IMG/VR virus record: IMGVR_UViG_3300010279_000202
Span: 1 to 9,195 of that record
DNA from: a virus
Taxonomy: Duplodnaviria > Heunggongvirae > Uroviricota > Caudoviricetes
Strand: one strand, 5' to 3'
Length of the DNA stretch: 9,195 nt
Position 1 is the stretch's first letter; every line of letters starts with the position of its first letter. Under the pieces are notes generated by a model. That model ran no database searches. It was not told where the DNA came from and saw only the letters and a list, made by a program, of their open reading frames with translations. The position numbers and the translations under genes were made by a program. Positions 2,741-6,590 of the stretch are shown piece by piece.

Positions 2741-3097
2741 ATGGCTAAAATCGAGTACCATCGTGATCGCGGTAATTACCTGGAAATATACGATCATGAA
2801 TCTCTTAACGATATCAACGATGCGTTATATGAATACTGTGAAAAAACGAGCATCACAGATGCACCTGATGCATTTGTCGAGCTGCCGGTATATCTCCGCG
2901 ACATCTATGCAATACGAACACCGCCCGTATCGGTGATTCACATTGGCTATGTCCGCCTGTCCATCGAAGAAGATGAAGATCGTTATATCGTGCGCCACTA
3001 TACATTGGACAGAAAAGAACTTCCTAATGAATGGAACATGAGTAATTTCTACAACGGTGAATATGGCTTAAAATCCGCTAATAATTTACGGTCATAA
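2741..3097 (+). CDS. Hypothetical acidic protein, 118 aa
   Basis: ATG directly follows the upstream TGA (TGAATG), with AGGGGA SD inside the end of the upstream gene, indicating translational coupling. Product has net negative charge (about 23 D/E versus 13 K/R). No recognisable motif. Confidence 0.75.
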   Translation: MAKIEYHRDRGNYLEIYDHESLNDINDALYEYCEKTSITDAPDAFVELPVYLRDIYAIRTPPVSVIHIGYVRLSIEEDEDRYIVRHYTLDRKELPNEWNMSNFYNGEYGLKSANNLRS

Positions 3098-3186
3098 TCT
3101 ATACAGGCATGTATAACAACAACGAGCCTATTAGCTGTCAACAACGTTATTTCCTCAAATAAGAAAAAGCAGAAAACAAATTGTTT

Positions 3187-3207
3187 AAGGTCACAAATTG
3201 TGGCCTT
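3187..3207. other. Hairpin: 9-bp stem (one U-G wobble) with 3-nt loop, flanked by the palindrome AAACAAATTGTTT
   Basis: AAGGTCACA-AAT-TGTGGCCTT. On the minus strand the stem is followed by AAACAATTTGTTTTCTGCTTTTTC, so it could terminate leftward transcripts, but the T-run is not immediately adjacent. Confidence 0.3.
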
Positions 3208-3856
3208 GATGGAGGAGGGAGGCTTATTGGCTATGGCTAAAAATCAAATTAGACACTTCATGTTGCTGTAGCTCATCAAGATCCGAGGCCACAAAACCTT
3301 TTCCGAAAAACTTCACAAGTAACTCACTAGCCGCATCATTGTCACCTATTACACGAAAGTCATACGGCAACGTCGCAAGTTGACGATGTAATCCTGCTGA
3401 GAAAGTCGAATCTAACAGCGCCCAGAATTCCCACCGCAGGATAATACTCGCCTCTTAATACTGTATATATGTTGTTACGATATGTTTTTCTGTCTCTAAA
3501 AAAAGATGTTAATAGAATGCTAACCATTGAAGTGGATAAAAATATACAATTCCAACAAACGTTATTTTTAACAATTTTTTTCTTTGCGTTGACTTTCCCG
3601 GACACCTTGTCTGACCGAAGGTGCGCGAAAGCCACTTTTTCCTTCCTGAGTTATCCACAAAGTTATGCACTTGCAAGAGGGCCATTTTCTACATATTGTG
3701 GTGGCTAACAGATGAAATGAATGTAGATTAATTGAAGATAAGGAGAAAATTTGAGATGCAATCATGACGTTAATAGATAGGGTCTGCATTACAGACCCCA
3801 CCCGCATCAAGGAATTAGCCGTTCCCTGATGTTTTTCCGAAAACATGTGCCGTAAG

Positions 3857-3923
3857 CTCACGTTAACGACTTTCATTCACCGAATCCAACTATATAGGGG
3901 TTGGGTTTCTACGTCAACGTGAG
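3857..3923. promoter_or_regulatory. Inverted-repeat pair: 13-bp arms (12/13 match) separated by about 41 bp; candidate operator
   Basis: Left arm CTCACGTTAACGA (3857-3869); reverse complement of right arm (3911-3923) is CTCACGTTGACGT. The arms flank an AT-rich spacer with TATATA (3891-3896) and lie about 40 bp upstream of the small ORF at 3960. Confidence 0.35.
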
Positions 3924-3959
3924 CAAGTGCACCTTTACATTTGACAAGGAACCACCTGA

Positions 3960-4097
3960 ATGAACGCTTTTTTTCAGTTCCTGAGTGCATTTTTAGATGC
4001 GCCTATTATTAGCCAGATTCTGGCTATTATCCTCATCATCGTTTTGATTTTGCTTTTAAGGTCAGTAAAAAATGGAATTATGCACTGGCTTACTTAA
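3960..4097 (+). CDS. Small hydrophobic (single-TM-like) protein, 45 aa
   Basis: ATG at 3960 with AAGGAA SD 9-14 nt upstream; product MNAFFQFLSAFLDAPIISQILAIILIIVLILLLRSVKNGIMHWLT has an uninterrupted hydrophobic core and basic tail. Stop is embedded in the palindrome ATGTTTCAGTGAAACAT. Below the track's size cutoff. Confidence 0.35.
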   Translation: MNAFFQFLSAFLDAPIISQILAIILIIVLILLLRSVKNGIMHWLT

Positions 4098-4172
4098 TGT
4101 TTCAGTGAAACATTAAAATCTCCTTGATGTGGAAACAATCATTTTCTGTATGTGCTGGTGGGCACCTGTAGT

Positions 4173-4535
4173 TCAGCTTTCGTTGGCATTTAACTTCGTC
4201 TTTGCTTTCTCCACCAGCAACTTCCAGATGCCTATTTCATTAGCAGCCGCCTTGATGGCGGCATAAAAAGCATCTTGCTGATCGTAACGCTGGATCTGTT
4301 TTTTCAGTTTTGCCTCCACCAATTTAATTTCATTACGTGCTTTCTGAAGCCGCATCACCGCCCGGTTACGTCTGTTCTTGTATAGCGTGTTAATCTCTGA
4401 CAATTGCTTTAATTTACCAGCCTGACTGTGGATTATCGCCTCCCTGGCTTCTGCCGTGCGTCTCATCTGATCTCTTAAGAGTTCACCGTTTTCGATAATT
4501 CTTTCAAGGTGTTTGATGTGATCTGCAACTCTCAT
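4173..4535 (-). CDS. Hypothetical coiled-coil protein, 120 aa
   Basis: ORF rich in heptad-like K/E/R/L/A/Q stretches; start ATG overlaps the upstream stop (ATGA at 4532-4535). Last gene of the minus-strand operon. Confidence 0.65.
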   Translation of the reverse strand: MRVADHIKHLERIIENGELLRDQMRRTAEAREAIIHSQAGKLKQLSEINTLYKNRRNRAVMRLQKARNEIKLVEAKLKKQIQRYDQQDAFYAAIKAAANEIGIWKLLVEKAKTKLNANES

Positions 4536-5161
4536 ACTTCACCCTCGCTTGTATCACCAGCGTCCACCAACGACAATAAAGCCCTGGCCATCTTATGAAC
4601 CAACAGTGCATCAATAATGCCAAGCGTATGCCCCGGCTTAATGTTTAATGCTGCCTCAAGATGACACCTTTCCAGACCGCTTTTCTCGGCTTGTTTATGA
4701 TGATATGGCGTAATAACGTCGCCCAAAACACGGCTAATTCTTTCTCGTAATTGCTGGGTGCCAGCACACTTGATCGCTGTATCGTGGAGACGGTTAACCA
4801 GTTCGCGATAAACATGCGGCTTAATGCGGATACGTTCACCGGTGACGCCCTTTCCTGGCGCTGGCACCGAACTATCCGGAATATCCGGATAGTTGCCAGC
4901 CTCGTAAGCTACCCGCAGCCAGTGCATGAATGTTTCAGTGGACACACAACCACAGTCCACATCGATTTTTCCGCGTTGCTGTTCCAGCCACTGCTCAAAA
5001 TTCAATCTACACGTATTACTTTCATGTTGCTCTTTTTGTCTCAAGGCCAGCATCTGCTGGGCTATTTCCAATACTTCATCTGCCGTATATCCAGCACCGT
5101 GACCATACATTTCGATACGGGAAATAATCTCTGATATACGCTCTTCAGTTATTCTGGTCAT
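4532..5161 (-). CDS. Hypothetical protein, about 209 aa
   Basis: Track ORF 4532..5176; I prefer the ATG at 5161 (MTRITEERISE...) because it forms an ATGA overlap with the upstream stop (5158-5160), the pattern used throughout this operon. The ATG at 5176 remains possible. Confidence 0.65.
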   Translation of the reverse strand: MTRITEERISEIISRIEMYGHGAGYTADEVLEIAQQMLALRQKEQHESNTCRLNFEQWLEQQRGKIDVDCGCVSTETFMHWLRVAYEAGNYPDIPDSSVPAPGKGVTGERIRIKPHVYRELVNRLHDTAIKCAGTQQLRERISRVLGDVITPYHHKQAEKSGLERCHLEAALNIKPGHTLGIIDALLVHKMARALLSLVDAGDTSEGEV

Positions 5162-5532
5162 TTCTTTTTGCGCCATTTCTTTTCACATTCCTTAGTCCAT
5201 TTTTCAATGTTCATTTTGGCAATATCAGTCATTCCATCACCTAAGAAATACTTTCTCCGGTACGTCTTGCACTTAAACCACACTACAACAGCCACCAGCC
5301 AGAAAATAAAAGGCCATACAGCAATACCAACTCCAGCCGCGATAAAGCCCAATAGCCATAAATGAAGCTCTCCAACTTCTGTTTGCGGCAATATTCTTAA
5401 AGAATTAAGCAGCAGACTGAAGGAATGGTCGTATGCATTGGCGGTATAAGACATGCAATCCATATAATTAAAGTCATAGCCTGCGGCTGCCGCCCATAAT
5501 GGGCGGTCAAGAAAATGTTTTAGTGTCATCAT
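5158..5532 (-). CDS. Small membrane protein, 124 aa, two predicted TM helices plus lysine-rich C-tail; superinfection-exclusion-like by architecture
   Basis: Hydrophobic stretches LHLWLLGFIAAGVGIAVWPFIFWLVAVVVWF followed by the charged tail KWTKECEKKWRKKK. Functional guess rests on architecture only. Confidence 0.6.
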   Translation of the reverse strand: MMTLKHFLDRPLWAAAAGYDFNYMDCMSYTANAYDHSFSLLLNSLRILPQTEVGELHLWLLGFIAAGVGIAVWPFIFWLVAVVVWFKCKTYRRKYFLGDGMTDIAKMNIEKWTKECEKKWRKKK

Positions 5533-6330: not shown

Positions 6331-6590
6331 TATCTCACCTCCAGTCTCCATACCGCCTGACCAATCCGGCTGGCATGGGTATCTTTGGATACTGTTCCGT
6401 CTTTAGCCATCTCCATAAGAATTTTGCGCAAATCTGCCGAACGCCATTCTTCATCAGGAAATTCCTTCTCCATTGCCAACCGCAGATTCCAGGTTGCCAT
6501 CCTGAATGGATATTCCCCGCCGAGAGCTTTATCTTGCAGGGCAGCCCGGGAACGCATCACCTGCAAAACCTTCTCTTTTACATCCATCAT
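6330..6590 (-). CDS. Hypothetical protein, 86 aa
   Basis: Track ORF 6330..6662; preferred ATG at 6590 (MMDVKEKVLQ...) forms an ATGA overlap with the upstream stop and follows a strong AGGAGG SD. Confidence 0.65.
   Translation of the reverse strand: MMDVKEKVLQVMRSRAALQDKALGGEYPFRMATWNLRLAMEKEFPDEEWRSADLRKILMEMAKDGTVSKDTHASRIGQAVWRLEVR

What the first reader, a model, noticed from the sequence alone, without database searches (positions are those of the whole stretch)
3857..4103. Small hydrophobic ORF downstream of an inverted-repeat operator: possible membrane toxin or type I TA-like module
The 45-codon ORF 3960-4097 has a good SD and encodes an almost purely hydrophobic helix with a basic tail, an architecture typical of small membrane-active toxins or small membrane regulators. 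It is preceded by a near-perfect 13-bp inverted-repeat pair, and its stop codon lies in a perfect palindrome that could form an RNA hairpin or be targeted by an antisense RNA.
Basis: inference. Interest (0 to 1): 0.55.

Follow-up and report, generated by a model that had tools for sequence, protein, structure and literature searches.

The report
Unannotated small membrane-peptide gene in P1/P7
Phage P1/P7-type plasmids carry a conserved, uncharacterised 45-codon gene for a tiny membrane peptide, fed by a promoter captured from the host nrdA gene and opposed by a strong antisense promoter; this looks like a type I toxin-antitoxin layout, but toxicity and transcripts are untested.

Summary
The 45-codon hydrophobic ORF (3960-4097), its SD, the 12/13 inverted repeat (3856-3868 / 3912-3924) and the perfect 11+11 palindrome over the stop codon (4094-4116) are all present. 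The window is a P7-type punavirus segment.

The ORF is absent from the P1/P7 reference annotations but is called "hypothetical protein" by PGAP. It is probably real: a lineage only 76% identical in DNA keeps the same start, stop and length. Omega is 0.41, TM-core codon-position changes are 8/1/6, and there are no indels. The annotated minus-strand ORFs upfM/upfN break in that lineage.

The "operator" reading fails. An IR of this quality is expected about once per window by chance. Its arms bracket a very strong, invariant minus-strand promoter (P1's predicted PupfN) that fires away from the ORF into a strongly folding RNA.

About 260 nt upstream, a captured E. coli nrdA-type promoter with two DnaA boxes points at the ORF, so the minus RNA would be antisense to the ORF's leader.

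This is type I TA-like in architecture only. There is no homology to known toxins, no transcript data and no toxicity data. The peptide family is confined to P1-type phage-plasmids.

The parts
3561..3689 (.). Segment homologous to the E. coli chromosomal nrdA upstream region (ypaB / nrdA promoter up to the spacer)
   Evidence: 94.6% identity over 130 bp and 98.9% over the last 90 bp; it hits all 5426 E. coli genomes. P1 (82%) and the 79% lineage (77%) share the same junction.
3651..3671 (+). Two DnaA boxes: TTATCCACA at 3651-3659 and TTATGCACT at 3663-3671
   Evidence: Read directly from the sequence. Invariant in all lineages. Annotated as a dnaA box in M95666 and as two predicted DnaA boxes in NC_005856.
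3671..3699 (+). nrdA-like sigma-70 promoter TTGCAA-17-TATTGT, predicted TSS about 3706, pointing at the small ORF
   Evidence: PWM score 10.4, equal to the genuine E. coli nrdA promoter TTGCAA-17-TATCTT. Positionally conserved in P1 (10.4) and the 79% lineage (TACTGT, 9.1). M95666 annotates an 'nrdA-like promoter' on this strand.
3751..3779 (+). Weaker conserved promoter-like site TTGAGA-17-TAGATA, an alternative start for the ORF's leader
   Evidence: PWM score 7.6, identical in all three lineages.
3775..3882 (-). Putative structured antisense RNA (about 108 nt, possibly longer) made from the minus-strand promoter; three hairpins
   Evidence: -43 kcal/mol with z -4.76 on the minus strand, against -27.9 with z -2.85 on the plus strand. 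The same asymmetry holds in three lineages. The consensus fold has 43 pairs, 1 compensatory pair and two G.U to A-U changes, with most substitutions in loops and linkers. No Rfam family matches.
3780..3798 (-). Terminal hairpin GGGTCTG-cauua-CAGACCC; on the minus strand it is followed by UAUCUAUU (a weak terminator-like tail)
   Evidence: Compensatory change T3783>C with A3795>G in the 79% lineage. Stability -13.6 / -15.7 kcal/mol. It fails the strict T-tail rule of the terminator scan.
3805..3836 (.). Hairpin 3805-3831 with a conserved stem and variable loop; on the plus strand it is followed by TTTTT at 3832-3836 (possible attenuator of the leader)
   Evidence: The stem is kept and the loop changes CGGCUAA>CUGUGAA between lineages. 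Stability -11.5 on the minus strand (one G.U) against -9.5 on the plus strand (A.C mismatch).
3856..3924 (.).
   Evidence: The 11-nt core of both arms is invariant in all lineages. The motif TCACGTTRACG occurs nowhere else in 100 kb of P7. An IR of this quality is expected by chance.
3889..3917 (-). Strong sigma-70 promoter TTGACG-17-TATAGT (P1's predicted 'PupfN'), predicted TSS about 3882, firing away from the ORF
   Evidence: 10 of 12 consensus matches. PWM score 15.5, the best site on either strand and identical in three lineages. It lies in the 3836-3924 block, which is 84/89 identical between lineages whose flanks are about 60% identical.
3946..3951 (+). Shine-Dalgarno sequence of the small ORF (AAGGAA; GAGGAT in the 79% lineage)
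   Evidence: The SD and the ATG are kept while the spacer between them varies and carries a 1-nt indel.
3960..4097 (+). 45-codon gene for a single-pass membrane peptide
   Evidence: Same start, stop and length in the 79% lineage. Omega 0.41, TM-core codon-position differences 8/1/6, neutral simulation 14.6% intact and 2.5% intact with equal hydrophobicity. 68 of 69 copies intact. PGAP calls it WP_000123562.1 and WP_162883679.1. It is not annotated in P1 or P7.
4094..4116 (.). Perfect 11+11 palindrome spanning the stop codon
   Evidence: 0 of 60 shuffles. Weak as an RNA hairpin: -8.6 on the plus strand and -11.1 on the minus strand. In the 79% lineage an 8-bp stem survives with one T-A>C-G compensation and one G-C>G.T change (my own reading of the alignment). 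There is no U-tail.
4117..4163 (.). Conserved 3' flank; the right end of cross-lineage homology (module boundary)
   Evidence: Homology between the window and L004 ends at 4163. The neighbouring genes differ: a pmgV homologue in the window, a lipoprotein-like gene in the other lineage.
3877..3990 (-). Annotated ORF upfM (P1) / upf91.3 (P7), judged spurious
   Evidence: In the 79% lineage the equivalent frame stops after 12 codons (my reading), and no equivalent ORF is listed there. Codon-position differences are 3/10/8.
3568..3876 (-). Annotated ORF upf91.4 (P7) / upfN (P1, shorter), judged spurious
   Evidence: The ATG at 3876 exists only in the P7 type (A3876>T elsewhere). The frame is interrupted in the 79% lineage. 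Changes in the hairpin are compensatory but non-synonymous.

Best explanation
Window 3561-4163 is a self-contained accessory module of about 600 bp found in P1-family phage-plasmids. Its only conserved ORF is a 45-residue single-pass membrane peptide (3960-4097), predicted N-terminus out and basic C-tail in.

The most likely expression logic is convergent-promoter and cis-antisense control:
1. A moderate promoter derived from the host nrdA promoter (DnaA boxes plus TTGCAA-17-TATTGT, TSS about 3706) makes a plus-strand mRNA with a structured leader of about 250 nt.
2. A much stronger, invariant promoter on the other strand (TTGACG-17-TATAGT, TSS about 3882) lies between the two IR arms, 40-100 nt upstream of the ORF. 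It fires back into that leader and makes a tightly folded RNA of about 110 nt or more that is perfectly complementary to it.
3. By default the strong antisense promoter and its RNA hold peptide synthesis down. The possible routes are transcriptional interference, duplex formation and degradation, or favouring the leader's hairpin-plus-U5 attenuator at 3805-3836.

This is the layout of a type I toxin-antitoxin locus of the hok/sok or ldr/rdl kind, with a weak toxin promoter, a long leader and a strong short antisense RNA against the leader.

Shown by sequence and comparison: ORF conservation, promoter motifs and their conservation, nrdA homology, strand-asymmetric RNA folding, and the module boundaries.

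Inferred: that either promoter fires, where the RNAs end, that they interact, and that the peptide is toxic.

My estimates: P(ORF translated) about 0.7; P(minus-strand RNA is made) about 0.75; P(the pair is a genuine type I TA with a toxic peptide) about 0.3. The confidence given here (0.45) is for the combined statement that a real membrane-peptide gene is under convergent-promoter or antisense control.
For: ORF:
- Same ATG, same stop and 45 codons in a lineage with 33 of 138 nt changed.
- NG86 omega 0.41; TM-core substitutions 8/1/6 by codon position; the N-terminal 12 codons show 2 synonymous changes plus D>N.
- Neutral simulation: P(intact) = 0.146, and P(intact with TM score at least as high) = 0.025.
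- No indel inside the ORF, while both flanks have indels.
- SD and ATG are kept while the spacer varies.
- 68 of 69 copies are intact, and PGAP calls the ORF.
- The competing minus-strand ORFs are not conserved.

Minus-strand promoter and RNA:
- Best promoter score on either strand, 15.5, identical in three lineages.
- The 3836-3924 block is 94% identical against 60-76% around it.
- Fold z -4.76 on the minus strand against -2.85 on the plus strand; the minus strand is 13-16 kcal/mol more stable in all lineages.
- One compensatory pair, and substitutions biased toward loops.

Plus-strand promoter:
- 130 bp of E. coli nrdA upstream DNA with the -35 and DnaA boxes retained and a -10 in the equivalent position.
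- It scores the same as the real nrdA promoter and is conserved in all lineages with the same junction.

Module integrity: cross-lineage homology runs from the nrdA segment to 65 nt past the ORF's stop, with different neighbouring genes.
Against: - No transcript, TSS, ribosome-profiling or phenotype data were found for this locus.
- Only two deep lineages exist, so the comparative statistics are thin: one compensatory pair in the RNA, and ORF retention at p about 0.03-0.15.
- Overall codon-position differences in the ORF are nearly flat at 12/8/13.
- The ORF has no strong promoter of its own within 250 nt. The leader contains a terminator-like hairpin with U5, so the nrdA-like transcript may never reach the ORF.
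- The minus-strand hairpin has a poor U-tail and fails the terminator scan, so the RNA may simply be the 5' leader of a longer transcript. In P1 and the 79% lineage hot lies downstream of it.
- There is no SD-sequestering structure (z -0.8 and +0.8) and no significant trans pairing with the ribosome-binding region.
- There is no homology to any type I toxin family.
- At least four natural variants have a frameshifted or replaced C-tail.
- CRISPRi on upfN and upfO, and (as cited there) deletions of upfM, upfN and upfO, have no effect on lytic growth (PMC10695390). This is uninformative about a TA role.
Confidence: 0.45

Rival explanations
1. The ORF is a real but non-toxic accessory (moron-type) membrane peptide expressed in lysogens from the DnaA-regulated nrdA-like promoter. 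The strong minus-strand promoter is functionally separate. It would be the constitutive promoter, with a structured 5' leader, for the genes to its left (hot, the theta-subunit homologue, in P1 and the 79% lineage). The two units are merely back-to-back neighbours.
For: hot lies directly downstream of the minus-strand promoter in P1 and in the 79% lineage. The minus-strand hairpin has only a weak U-tail, so read-through is plausible. There is no toxin homology. Tail-variant alleles are tolerated.
Against: In the P7-type window hot is absent, yet the promoter and the structured block are 100% retained. The two promoters are convergent, not back-to-back, so their transcripts must overlap by at least about 175 nt if both fire. 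The block is far more conserved than a plain leader would need to be.
Confidence: 0.3
2. The 45-codon ORF is not translated. Its relative conservation reflects overlapping regulatory DNA or RNA, such as an UP element or upstream region of the minus-strand promoter, 3' UTR or terminator sequences of the pmgV operon, or promoters for minus-strand transcripts. Its hydrophobicity would be a by-product of a T-rich strand.
For: Overall codon-position differences are flat at 12/8/13. ORF retention alone has p = 0.146 under neutrality. There is no dedicated promoter nearby. P1 and P7 annotators and many PGAP runs do not call it. The exact P1 and P7 peptides are absent from a 15-billion-protein collection. 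Frameshift alleles exist.
Against: - Start, stop, frame and SD are all preserved, with no indel in 138 nt, while the flanks diverge to about 60% and carry indels.
- Second codon positions in the TM core are protected: 1 change against 8 and 6.
- Omega is 0.41.
- P1's predicted minus-strand promoters over the ORF are not conserved.
- It is the only ORF conserved inside the module.
Confidence: 0.2
3. The inverted repeat is a true protein operator. A dimeric or looping repressor would bind the two TCACGTTRACG arms, one over the -35 and one at about +14 to +26, and switch the strong minus-strand promoter off. That would indirectly license the convergent nrdA-like transcript and the peptide.
For: Both 11-nt cores are invariant in all lineages and the 43-nt spacing is constant in 53 of 53 viral contigs. 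The arms sit exactly on the -35 and on the early transcribed region. Each arm contains a short internal palindrome: CGTTAACG in one and ACGTcaACGT in the other.
Against: An IR of this quality is expected about once per window by chance. The whole 89-nt block is invariant, so the arms are not specifically conserved. The motif occurs nowhere else in 100 kb of P7. It resembles none of the P1 sites compared: the C1 operator and LexA box (recalled from memory) and the Lpa -22 region, whose sequence was read. No candidate binding protein was identified.
Confidence: 0.15

Closest known systems
hok/sok (plasmid R1) and ldr/rdl (E. coli) type I toxin-antitoxin loci
   Same: A small single-pass hydrophobic peptide of under 60 aa. 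A putative long structured leader. A short, strongly promoted, highly structured RNA encoded antisense to the leader rather than to the ORF. Carriage on a low-copy plasmid-prophage that already has an addiction system (phd/doc).
   Different: There is no sequence homology: no Pfam or NCBIfam hit, and pairwise shuffle p of 0.01-0.06 for Ldr and 0.07-0.85 for Hok. There is no mok-like overlapping reading frame, no fold-back SD sequestration, and no evidence of toxicity or of either transcript. The antisense promoter is 80-100 nt from the ORF, and the mRNA promoter is a captured host promoter.
E. coli nrdAB promoter (DnaA-box-containing, cell-cycle regulated)
   Same: 130 bp of near-identical upstream sequence, including both DnaA boxes and the -35 TTGCAA. 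A -10 sits at the same 17-nt spacing and the PWM score is the same.
   Different: Homology stops just before the -10. The nrdA 5' UTR and the downstream regulatory sequence are replaced by phage sequence, and the gene served is a 45-codon ORF about 250 nt downstream rather than ribonucleotide reductase.
Convergent-promoter and antisense switches of temperate phages and plasmids (P1 c4/ant, the P1 repL antisense RNA, coliphage 186 pR/pL)
   Same: Face-to-face promoters about 175 bp apart, with a strong promoter opposing a weaker one. Structured antisense RNA in a temperate phage that is already known to use antisense RNAs (c4 is annotated in P7).
   Different: This locus lies outside the immunity and replication regions. 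No function is known, there is no sequence similarity to c4, and no Rfam family matches.
P1 upfM/upfN and P7 upf91.3/upf91.4 (the existing annotation of this DNA)
   Same: The same coordinates, and the predicted promoter PupfN is the same site as the strong minus-strand promoter found here.
   Different: Those minus-strand ORFs are not conserved in the 79% lineage. The conserved coding frame is on the opposite strand.

Membership tests
Type I toxin-antitoxin system | Small (under about 60 aa) hydrophobic peptide with a predicted transmembrane helix | tested here: met
   45 aa; the maximum 19-residue hydropathy is 3.1, or 2.6 in the second lineage; basic C-tail.
Type I toxin-antitoxin system | An RNA antitoxin gene overlapping or adjacent to the toxin gene, with extended complementarity to the toxin mRNA | tested here: inconclusive
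   A strong conserved promoter and a strand-specific, well-folding RNA are predicted. It is complementary to the toxin mRNA only if that mRNA starts upstream of 3882, for example at the nrdA-like promoter. No transcript data were found. Trans pairing with the RBS is not significant.
Type I toxin-antitoxin system | The peptide is toxic (growth arrest or membrane damage) when expressed without the RNA | not testable with these tools
   This needs inducible expression. The only phenotypic data found (CRISPRi and, as cited there, deletions of upfM, upfN and upfO) concern lytic growth.
Type I toxin-antitoxin system | The RNA represses toxin translation or destabilises its mRNA | not testable with these tools
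   This requires reporter fusions or Northern blots.
Known type I toxin families (Hok/Gef, Ldr, Fst, TisB, Ibs, ShoB, ZorO, DinQ) | Detectable sequence homology to the family profile or its members | tested here: not met
   Pfam and NCBIfam give no relevant hit at E<=10. Smith-Waterman against recalled sequences gives shuffle p of 0.012-0.06 for Ldr (a 'DxAPI'-like motif), not significant after 18 comparisons, and 0.02-0.85 for the others. HMMER against 1.84 billion representatives finds only P1-group peptides.
nrdA-type DnaA-regulated promoter | Two DnaA boxes immediately upstream of a TTGCAA -35 with a -10 at 17 nt | tested here: met
   Boxes at 3651-3659 and 3663-3671, -35 at 3671-3676 and -10 at 3694-3699. 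98.9% identity to the E. coli locus up to 3689.
nrdA-type DnaA-regulated promoter | Promoter activity and DnaA responsiveness | not testable with these tools
   The only support is the 1993 annotation 'nrdA-like promoter' in M95666.
Intrinsic (rho-independent) terminator at the ORF's stop codon | G+C-rich stem followed by a U-run | tested here: not met
   The palindrome at 4094-4116 is A+T-rich (-8.6 kcal/mol) and has no U-tail on either strand.
Known P1 regulatory sites (C1 operator, Lpa -22 box, LexA box) | IR arms match the site consensus or recur at other P1/P7 promoters | tested here: not met
   The arm motif is unique to this locus in 100 kb of P7. The annotated C1, LexA and Lpa sites lie elsewhere and differ from it.

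The most novel reading that the evidence does not exclude
The module is a previously unrecognised type I toxin-antitoxin (or antisense-gated membrane-peptide switch) of phage P1/P7, founding a new toxin family. Its toxin promoter was captured from the host nrdA gene, so peptide expression would be wired to DnaA and replication status. A strong cis-antisense RNA, made from what is currently mis-annotated as the upfM/upfN coding region, would hold it off. This would be a second, RNA-based addiction or stress module next to phd/doc in a classic model phage.
Probability: 0.25. Interest if true: 0.65.

Novelty: new member of a known kind. Interest (0 to 1): 0.42.

Why it matters
P1 is a workhorse phage and the prototype of the phage-plasmids that now spread resistance genes in Enterobacteriaceae. 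In its reference annotation this 600-bp stretch carries only dubious minus-strand "upf" ORFs.

Comparison across lineages suggests a different content: a plus-strand membrane-peptide gene, a strong antisense promoter with a structured RNA, and a host-derived DnaA-box promoter. If the peptide is toxic and RNA-controlled, P1 would have a second, RNA-based maintenance or stress module, linked to the host's replication-status sensor.

Even if it is not toxic, the result corrects the annotation. It also provides a compact, testable example of promoter capture from the host chromosome.

Tried and rejected
- **Rfam** (evalue mode, 3300-4600): only noise, best hit E = 0.69.
- **Pfam, NCBIfam, PHROGs, PADLOC and PDB sequence searches** with the peptide: nothing meaningful. 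The best was phrog_1184 at E = 0.058, function unknown.
- **Ldr/Fst resemblance** ("DxAPI" motif, recalled from memory): shuffle p of 0.012-0.06 for Ldr and 0.07-0.40 for Fst across 18 comparisons, so I reject it as evidence of homology.
- **Deeper homologues.** None of these found more than two deep lineages:
  - word-indexed protein search;
  - exhaustive HMMER over 1.84 billion representatives;
  - GTDB species-representative genomes by DNA pattern, 0 hits;
  - three IMG/VR pattern scans, which returned the same 53 loci;
  - a protein-guided metagenome scan.
- **Local SD-sequestering hairpin:** not significant and not conserved.
- **Trans pairing of the minus-strand RNA with the RBS region:** not significant.
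- **An antisense RNA from P1's predicted P1upfM/P2upfM promoters over the ORF's 3' end:** these promoters are not conserved in the second lineage.
- **Arm motif as a regulon site:** it is unique in P7.
- **Small plus-strand ORFs in the leader** (21 codons at 3763-3828, 25 codons at 3846-3923): both stay open in both lineages. The 21-codon ORF shows mostly non-synonymous changes. The 25-codon ORF has no SD, and its few changes are mostly non-synonymous within an almost invariant block. I do not consider either to be coding.
- **Literature:** nothing on upfM/upfN function or transcripts. The Lobocka 2004 and Chikova & Schaaper 2007 papers are not held.
Full report
**Where the window comes from**

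The window carries doc (918-1298, minus), phd (1298-1525, minus) and humD (1592-1981, minus). Region 3400-4600 is 99.8% identical to phage P7 and 96% identical to phage P1. So this is a P7-type punavirus (P1-family phage-plasmid) segment. It lacks the IS903 copy that P7 itself carries between the equivalents of 3097 and 3360.

**Checking the observation**

- The ORF runs from ATG 3960 to TAA 4095-4097 and encodes MNAFFQFLSAFLDAPIISQILAIILIIVLILLLRSVKNGIMHWLT.
- AAGGAA lies at 3946-3951, and an in-frame TGA directly precedes the ATG.
- The inverted repeat is GCTCACGTTAACG (3856-3868) and CGTCAACGTGAGC (3912-3924), 12 of 13 complementary with 43 nt between the arms. The palindrome is 4094-4104 / 4106-4116, perfect, and contains the stop codon.

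Two controls separate these features. A 13-nt inverted repeat with at most one mismatch within 150 nt turns up 1.1 times per dinucleotide-shuffled window, and half of the shuffles have one. A perfect 11+11 hairpin never appeared in 60 shuffles. The palindrome is therefore non-random as a repeat. The inverted repeat is not, and any case for it must rest on conservation and position.

**Existing annotation**

P1 (NC_005856) and P7 (AF503408) annotate only the minus strand here:
- upfM / upf91.3 (window 3877-3990);
- upfN / upf91.4 (to the left of 3876);
- predicted promoters PupfN, P1upfM and P2upfM.

The plus-strand ORF is not annotated in either record. PGAP does call it in some RefSeq plasmids: WP_000123562.1 (45 aa) in a P1-type plasmid, and WP_162883679.1 (49 aa) in a diverged lineage. 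No paper in the library discusses upfM or upfN beyond listing them. A CRISPRi screen found upfN and upfO non-essential for plaque formation and could not target upfM. The deletion survey it cites scored upfM, upfN and upfO as non-essential (PMC10695390; PMC9603915).

**Comparative material**

These searches together yield only two deep lineages: the P1/P7 type, and a type about 79% identical in DNA (about 30 plasmids, e.g. NZ_AP022163 = L004 and NZ_CP030285 = L005).
- BLAST against plasmids and against complete E. coli genomes.
- Three pattern scans of IMG/VR.
- A protein-guided metagenome scan.
- A word-indexed protein search.
- An exhaustive HMMER search of 1.84 billion representatives.

The peptide family is thus confined to P1-type phage-plasmids. 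This limits all comparative statistics to essentially one deep comparison.

**Is the ORF a gene?**

In L004 the ORF has the same ATG, the same stop position and 45 codons (MIVFFQFLSAFLNAPVLSQVLAIVFIVVLIWFFKSVINRGVRWLI), despite 33 of 138 nucleotide changes.

Evidence for a gene:
- The ORF has no indels, whereas the 35-nt 5' flank and the 3' flank do.
- The SD (AAGGA / GAGGA) and the ATG are kept while the spacer varies.
- Nei-Gojobori omega is 0.41.
- In the TM core (codons 14-33) substitutions fall 8/1/6 on codon positions 1/2/3. This is what is expected if the second-position T that specifies hydrophobic residues is protected.
- In codons 1-13, four of the seven changes are third-position.
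- A neutral simulation with the same number of substitutions keeps start, stop and frame in 14.6% of trials, and additionally keeps hydrophobicity at least as high in 2.5%.
- 68 of 69 fetched copies are intact.

The annotated minus-strand ORFs do not survive. upfM stops after 12 codons in the 79% lineage. The ATG of P7's upf91.4 exists only in the P7 type, and the upfN frame is interrupted.

Evidence against:
- The overall codon-position profile is nearly flat at 12/8/13.
- Four natural alleles have a frameshifted or replaced C-tail (P0001-P0004).
- The exact P1 and P7 peptides are absent from a 15-billion-protein collection.

I put the probability that the ORF is translated at about 0.7.

**What the inverted repeat really brackets**

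A consensus scan finds one outstanding promoter in the region, and it is on the minus strand: TTGACG (3917-3912), 17 nt, TATAGT (3894-3889), matching 10 of 12 consensus positions. It coincides with P1's predicted PupfN.

A PWM scan ranks it first on either strand with a score of 15.5, identical in P7-type, P1 and the 79% lineage. The right IR arm overlaps its -35. The left arm lies at about +14 to +26 of its transcript. The promoter fires away from the ORF.

The block 3836-3924 is 84/89 identical between lineages, while the ORF is 105/138 and the remaining flanks are about 60%. Because the whole block is invariant, the arms themselves cannot be shown to be specifically constrained. The arm motif occurs nowhere else in 100 kb of P7 and differs from the annotated C1, LexA and Lpa sites. 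The "operator of the ORF" reading is not supported.

**The RNA downstream of that promoter**

The first 110 nt of the minus-strand transcript (3884->3775) fold to -43 kcal/mol (z = -4.76; 0 of 200 shuffles do as well). The same DNA read as plus-strand RNA gives -27.9 kcal/mol (z = -2.85). The 13-16 kcal/mol asymmetry recurs in all three lineages, because many pairs are G.U on the minus strand.

RNAalifold on the seven distinct variants gives three hairpins with 43 pairs:
- There is one compensatory pair: T3783>C with A3795>G in the terminal GGGTCTG / CAGACCC hairpin.
- Two G.U pairs change to A-U.
- Most substitutions fall in loops and linkers. For example, the loop of the 3805-3831 hairpin changes CGGCUAA>CUGUGAA while its stem stays.

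The terminal hairpin (-13.6 to -15.7 kcal/mol) is followed by UAUCUAUU. This is a weak tail that fails the terminator scan, so the 3' end is uncertain. No Rfam family matches.

**A promoter for the ORF**

No good plus-strand promoter lies within 250 nt of the ORF. However, the original P1 phd/doc record (M95666) annotates an "nrdA-like promoter" and a DnaA box that map to the window's plus strand at 3634-3689.
- Window 3561-3689 is 94.6% identical (98.9% over the last 90 nt) to the chromosomal ypaB/nrdA upstream region, and hits all 5426 E. coli genomes.
- It contains DnaA boxes TTATCCACA (3651-3659) and TTATGCACT (3663-3671), and the nrdA -35 TTGCAA (3671-3676).
- Homology ends just before the -10, but TATTGT (3694-3699) sits where nrdA has TATCTT.
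- The site scores 10.4, the same as the genuine nrdA promoter, and is conserved in P1 (10.4) and in the 79% lineage (TACTGT, 9.1).
- P1 (82%) and the 79% lineage (77%) share the same junction with the E. coli sequence. This points to one ancestral capture that has been kept.

A transcript from this promoter (TSS about 3706) would run through the structured block and the opposing promoter to the ORF, giving a leader of about 250 nt. A weaker, also invariant, TTGAGA-17-TAGATA site (3751-3779) is an alternative start. On the plus strand the 3805-3831 hairpin is followed by U5 (UUGUU in P1, UUUUUAU in the 79% lineage), which is a possible attenuator.

**Module boundaries**

Homology between the P7-type window and the 79% lineage runs from about 3599 to 4163. 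To the right the neighbours differ: a pmgV homologue in the window, a lipoprotein-like gene in the other lineage. To the left, hot is present in P1 and the 79% lineage but absent in the P7 type. The unit from the nrdA-like promoter to 65 nt past the ORF's stop is therefore inherited as a block, and the 45-codon ORF is its only conserved reading frame.

**Most likely mechanism**

Two convergent promoters lie about 175 bp apart. One is a moderate, host-derived, DnaA-box promoter aimed at a small membrane-peptide gene. The other is a much stronger promoter that makes a tightly folded RNA, perfectly complementary to that gene's leader.

This is the architecture of type I toxin-antitoxin loci whose antitoxin pairs with the leader (hok/sok, ldr/rdl). 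More generally it resembles phage and plasmid antisense or transcriptional-interference switches.

The parts shown here are the sequence features and their conservation. Transcription, RNA ends, RNA-RNA interaction and toxicity are all inferred. Several tests that could have strengthened the TA reading were negative:
- no SD-sequestering structure;
- no trans pairing with the RBS;
- no homology to Hok, Ldr, Fst, TisB, Ibs, ShoB, ZorO or DinQ;
- a recalled "DxAPI" resemblance to Ldr is not significant (p 0.012-0.06 across 18 comparisons).

**The stop-codon palindrome**

It is statistically real, but A+T-rich (-8.6 / -11.1 kcal/mol) and without a U-tail. In the 79% lineage an 8-bp stem persists with one T-A>C-G compensation and one G-C>G.T change (my reading). 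This hints at a conserved structure or binding site of unknown role. P1's predicted promoter P1upfM (CTGAAA-17-CATAAT, 4105->4077), which could have made an antisense RNA there, is destroyed in the 79% lineage.

**Verdict**

A conserved small membrane-peptide gene, missing from the P1 and P7 reference annotations and uncharacterised, is probably there, and the locus has a type I TA-like layout. The inverted repeat, however, marks an opposing promoter rather than an operator for the ORF. The TA function is unproven (my estimate is about 0.25-0.3).

At best this is a new member of a known kind. Interest is moderate. It corrects the annotation of a classic phage, reveals a host-promoter capture, and is cheaply testable.

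Noticed in passing
window 3561-3689: About 130 bp of E. coli chromosomal DNA (the ypaB / nrdA promoter region with two DnaA boxes and the -35) is embedded in the phage. Identity to E. coli is 95-99% in the P7 type but only 82% in P1 and 77% in the third lineage, with the same junction. This suggests one old capture plus a recent re-homogenisation against the host in the P7 type.
   Followed up: yes
window 3097-3360 (against P7 AF503408 92007-93063): The window is P7-like (99.8%) but lacks P7's IS903 insertion. The coordinate offset changes by 1066 bp (1057-bp IS903 plus 9 bp).
   Followed up: partly
window 4870-4894: A second perfect 11+11 palindrome, AACTATCCGGA-ata-TCCGGATAGTT, lies inside the 214-aa minus-strand ORF (4532-5176). 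None of this kind appeared in 60 shuffles.
   Followed up: no
window 6587-7543 (-) and 8418-8780 (-): Two ORFs (318 aa and 120 aa) share an N-terminal 'ITKER...ARIALASLEAE' segment and a 'NACRAAMLQ' motif, so they look like paralogues or a partial duplication.
   Followed up: no
proteins P0001-P0004; L005 1381-1530: There are four independent natural alleles of the 45-aa peptide with an altered C-tail: frameshifts after K37 and K34, and fusions after L31 and V36. All keep the N-terminus and most or all of the TM segment.
   Followed up: partly
window 3763-3828 (+) and 3846-3923 (+): Two tiny plus-strand ORFs (21 and 25 codons) in the putative leader stay open in both lineages. The 21-codon ORF shows mostly non-synonymous changes. 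The 25-codon ORF has no SD, and its few changes are mostly non-synonymous within the near-invariant block. A strong SD (UAAGGAG, 3740-3746) precedes a 3-codon mini-ORF at 3757-3768 whose stop overlaps the 21-codon ORF's ATG.
   Followed up: partly
window 3100-3560 against L001 2138-2401 and L004 673-912: hot (the DNA polymerase III theta homologue) lies just left of the module in P1 and in the 79% lineage, but is absent from this P7-type window, where unrelated sequence takes its place.
   Followed up: partly
window 4153-4161 / 4211-4219; L004 about 1568-1610: The arms TGCTGGTGG / CCACCAGCA span the 3' end of the pmgV homologue. The 79% lineage has CTGGTG ... CACCAG with a different, non-homologous spacer. 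This may be a conserved hairpin or may be chance.
   Followed up: no
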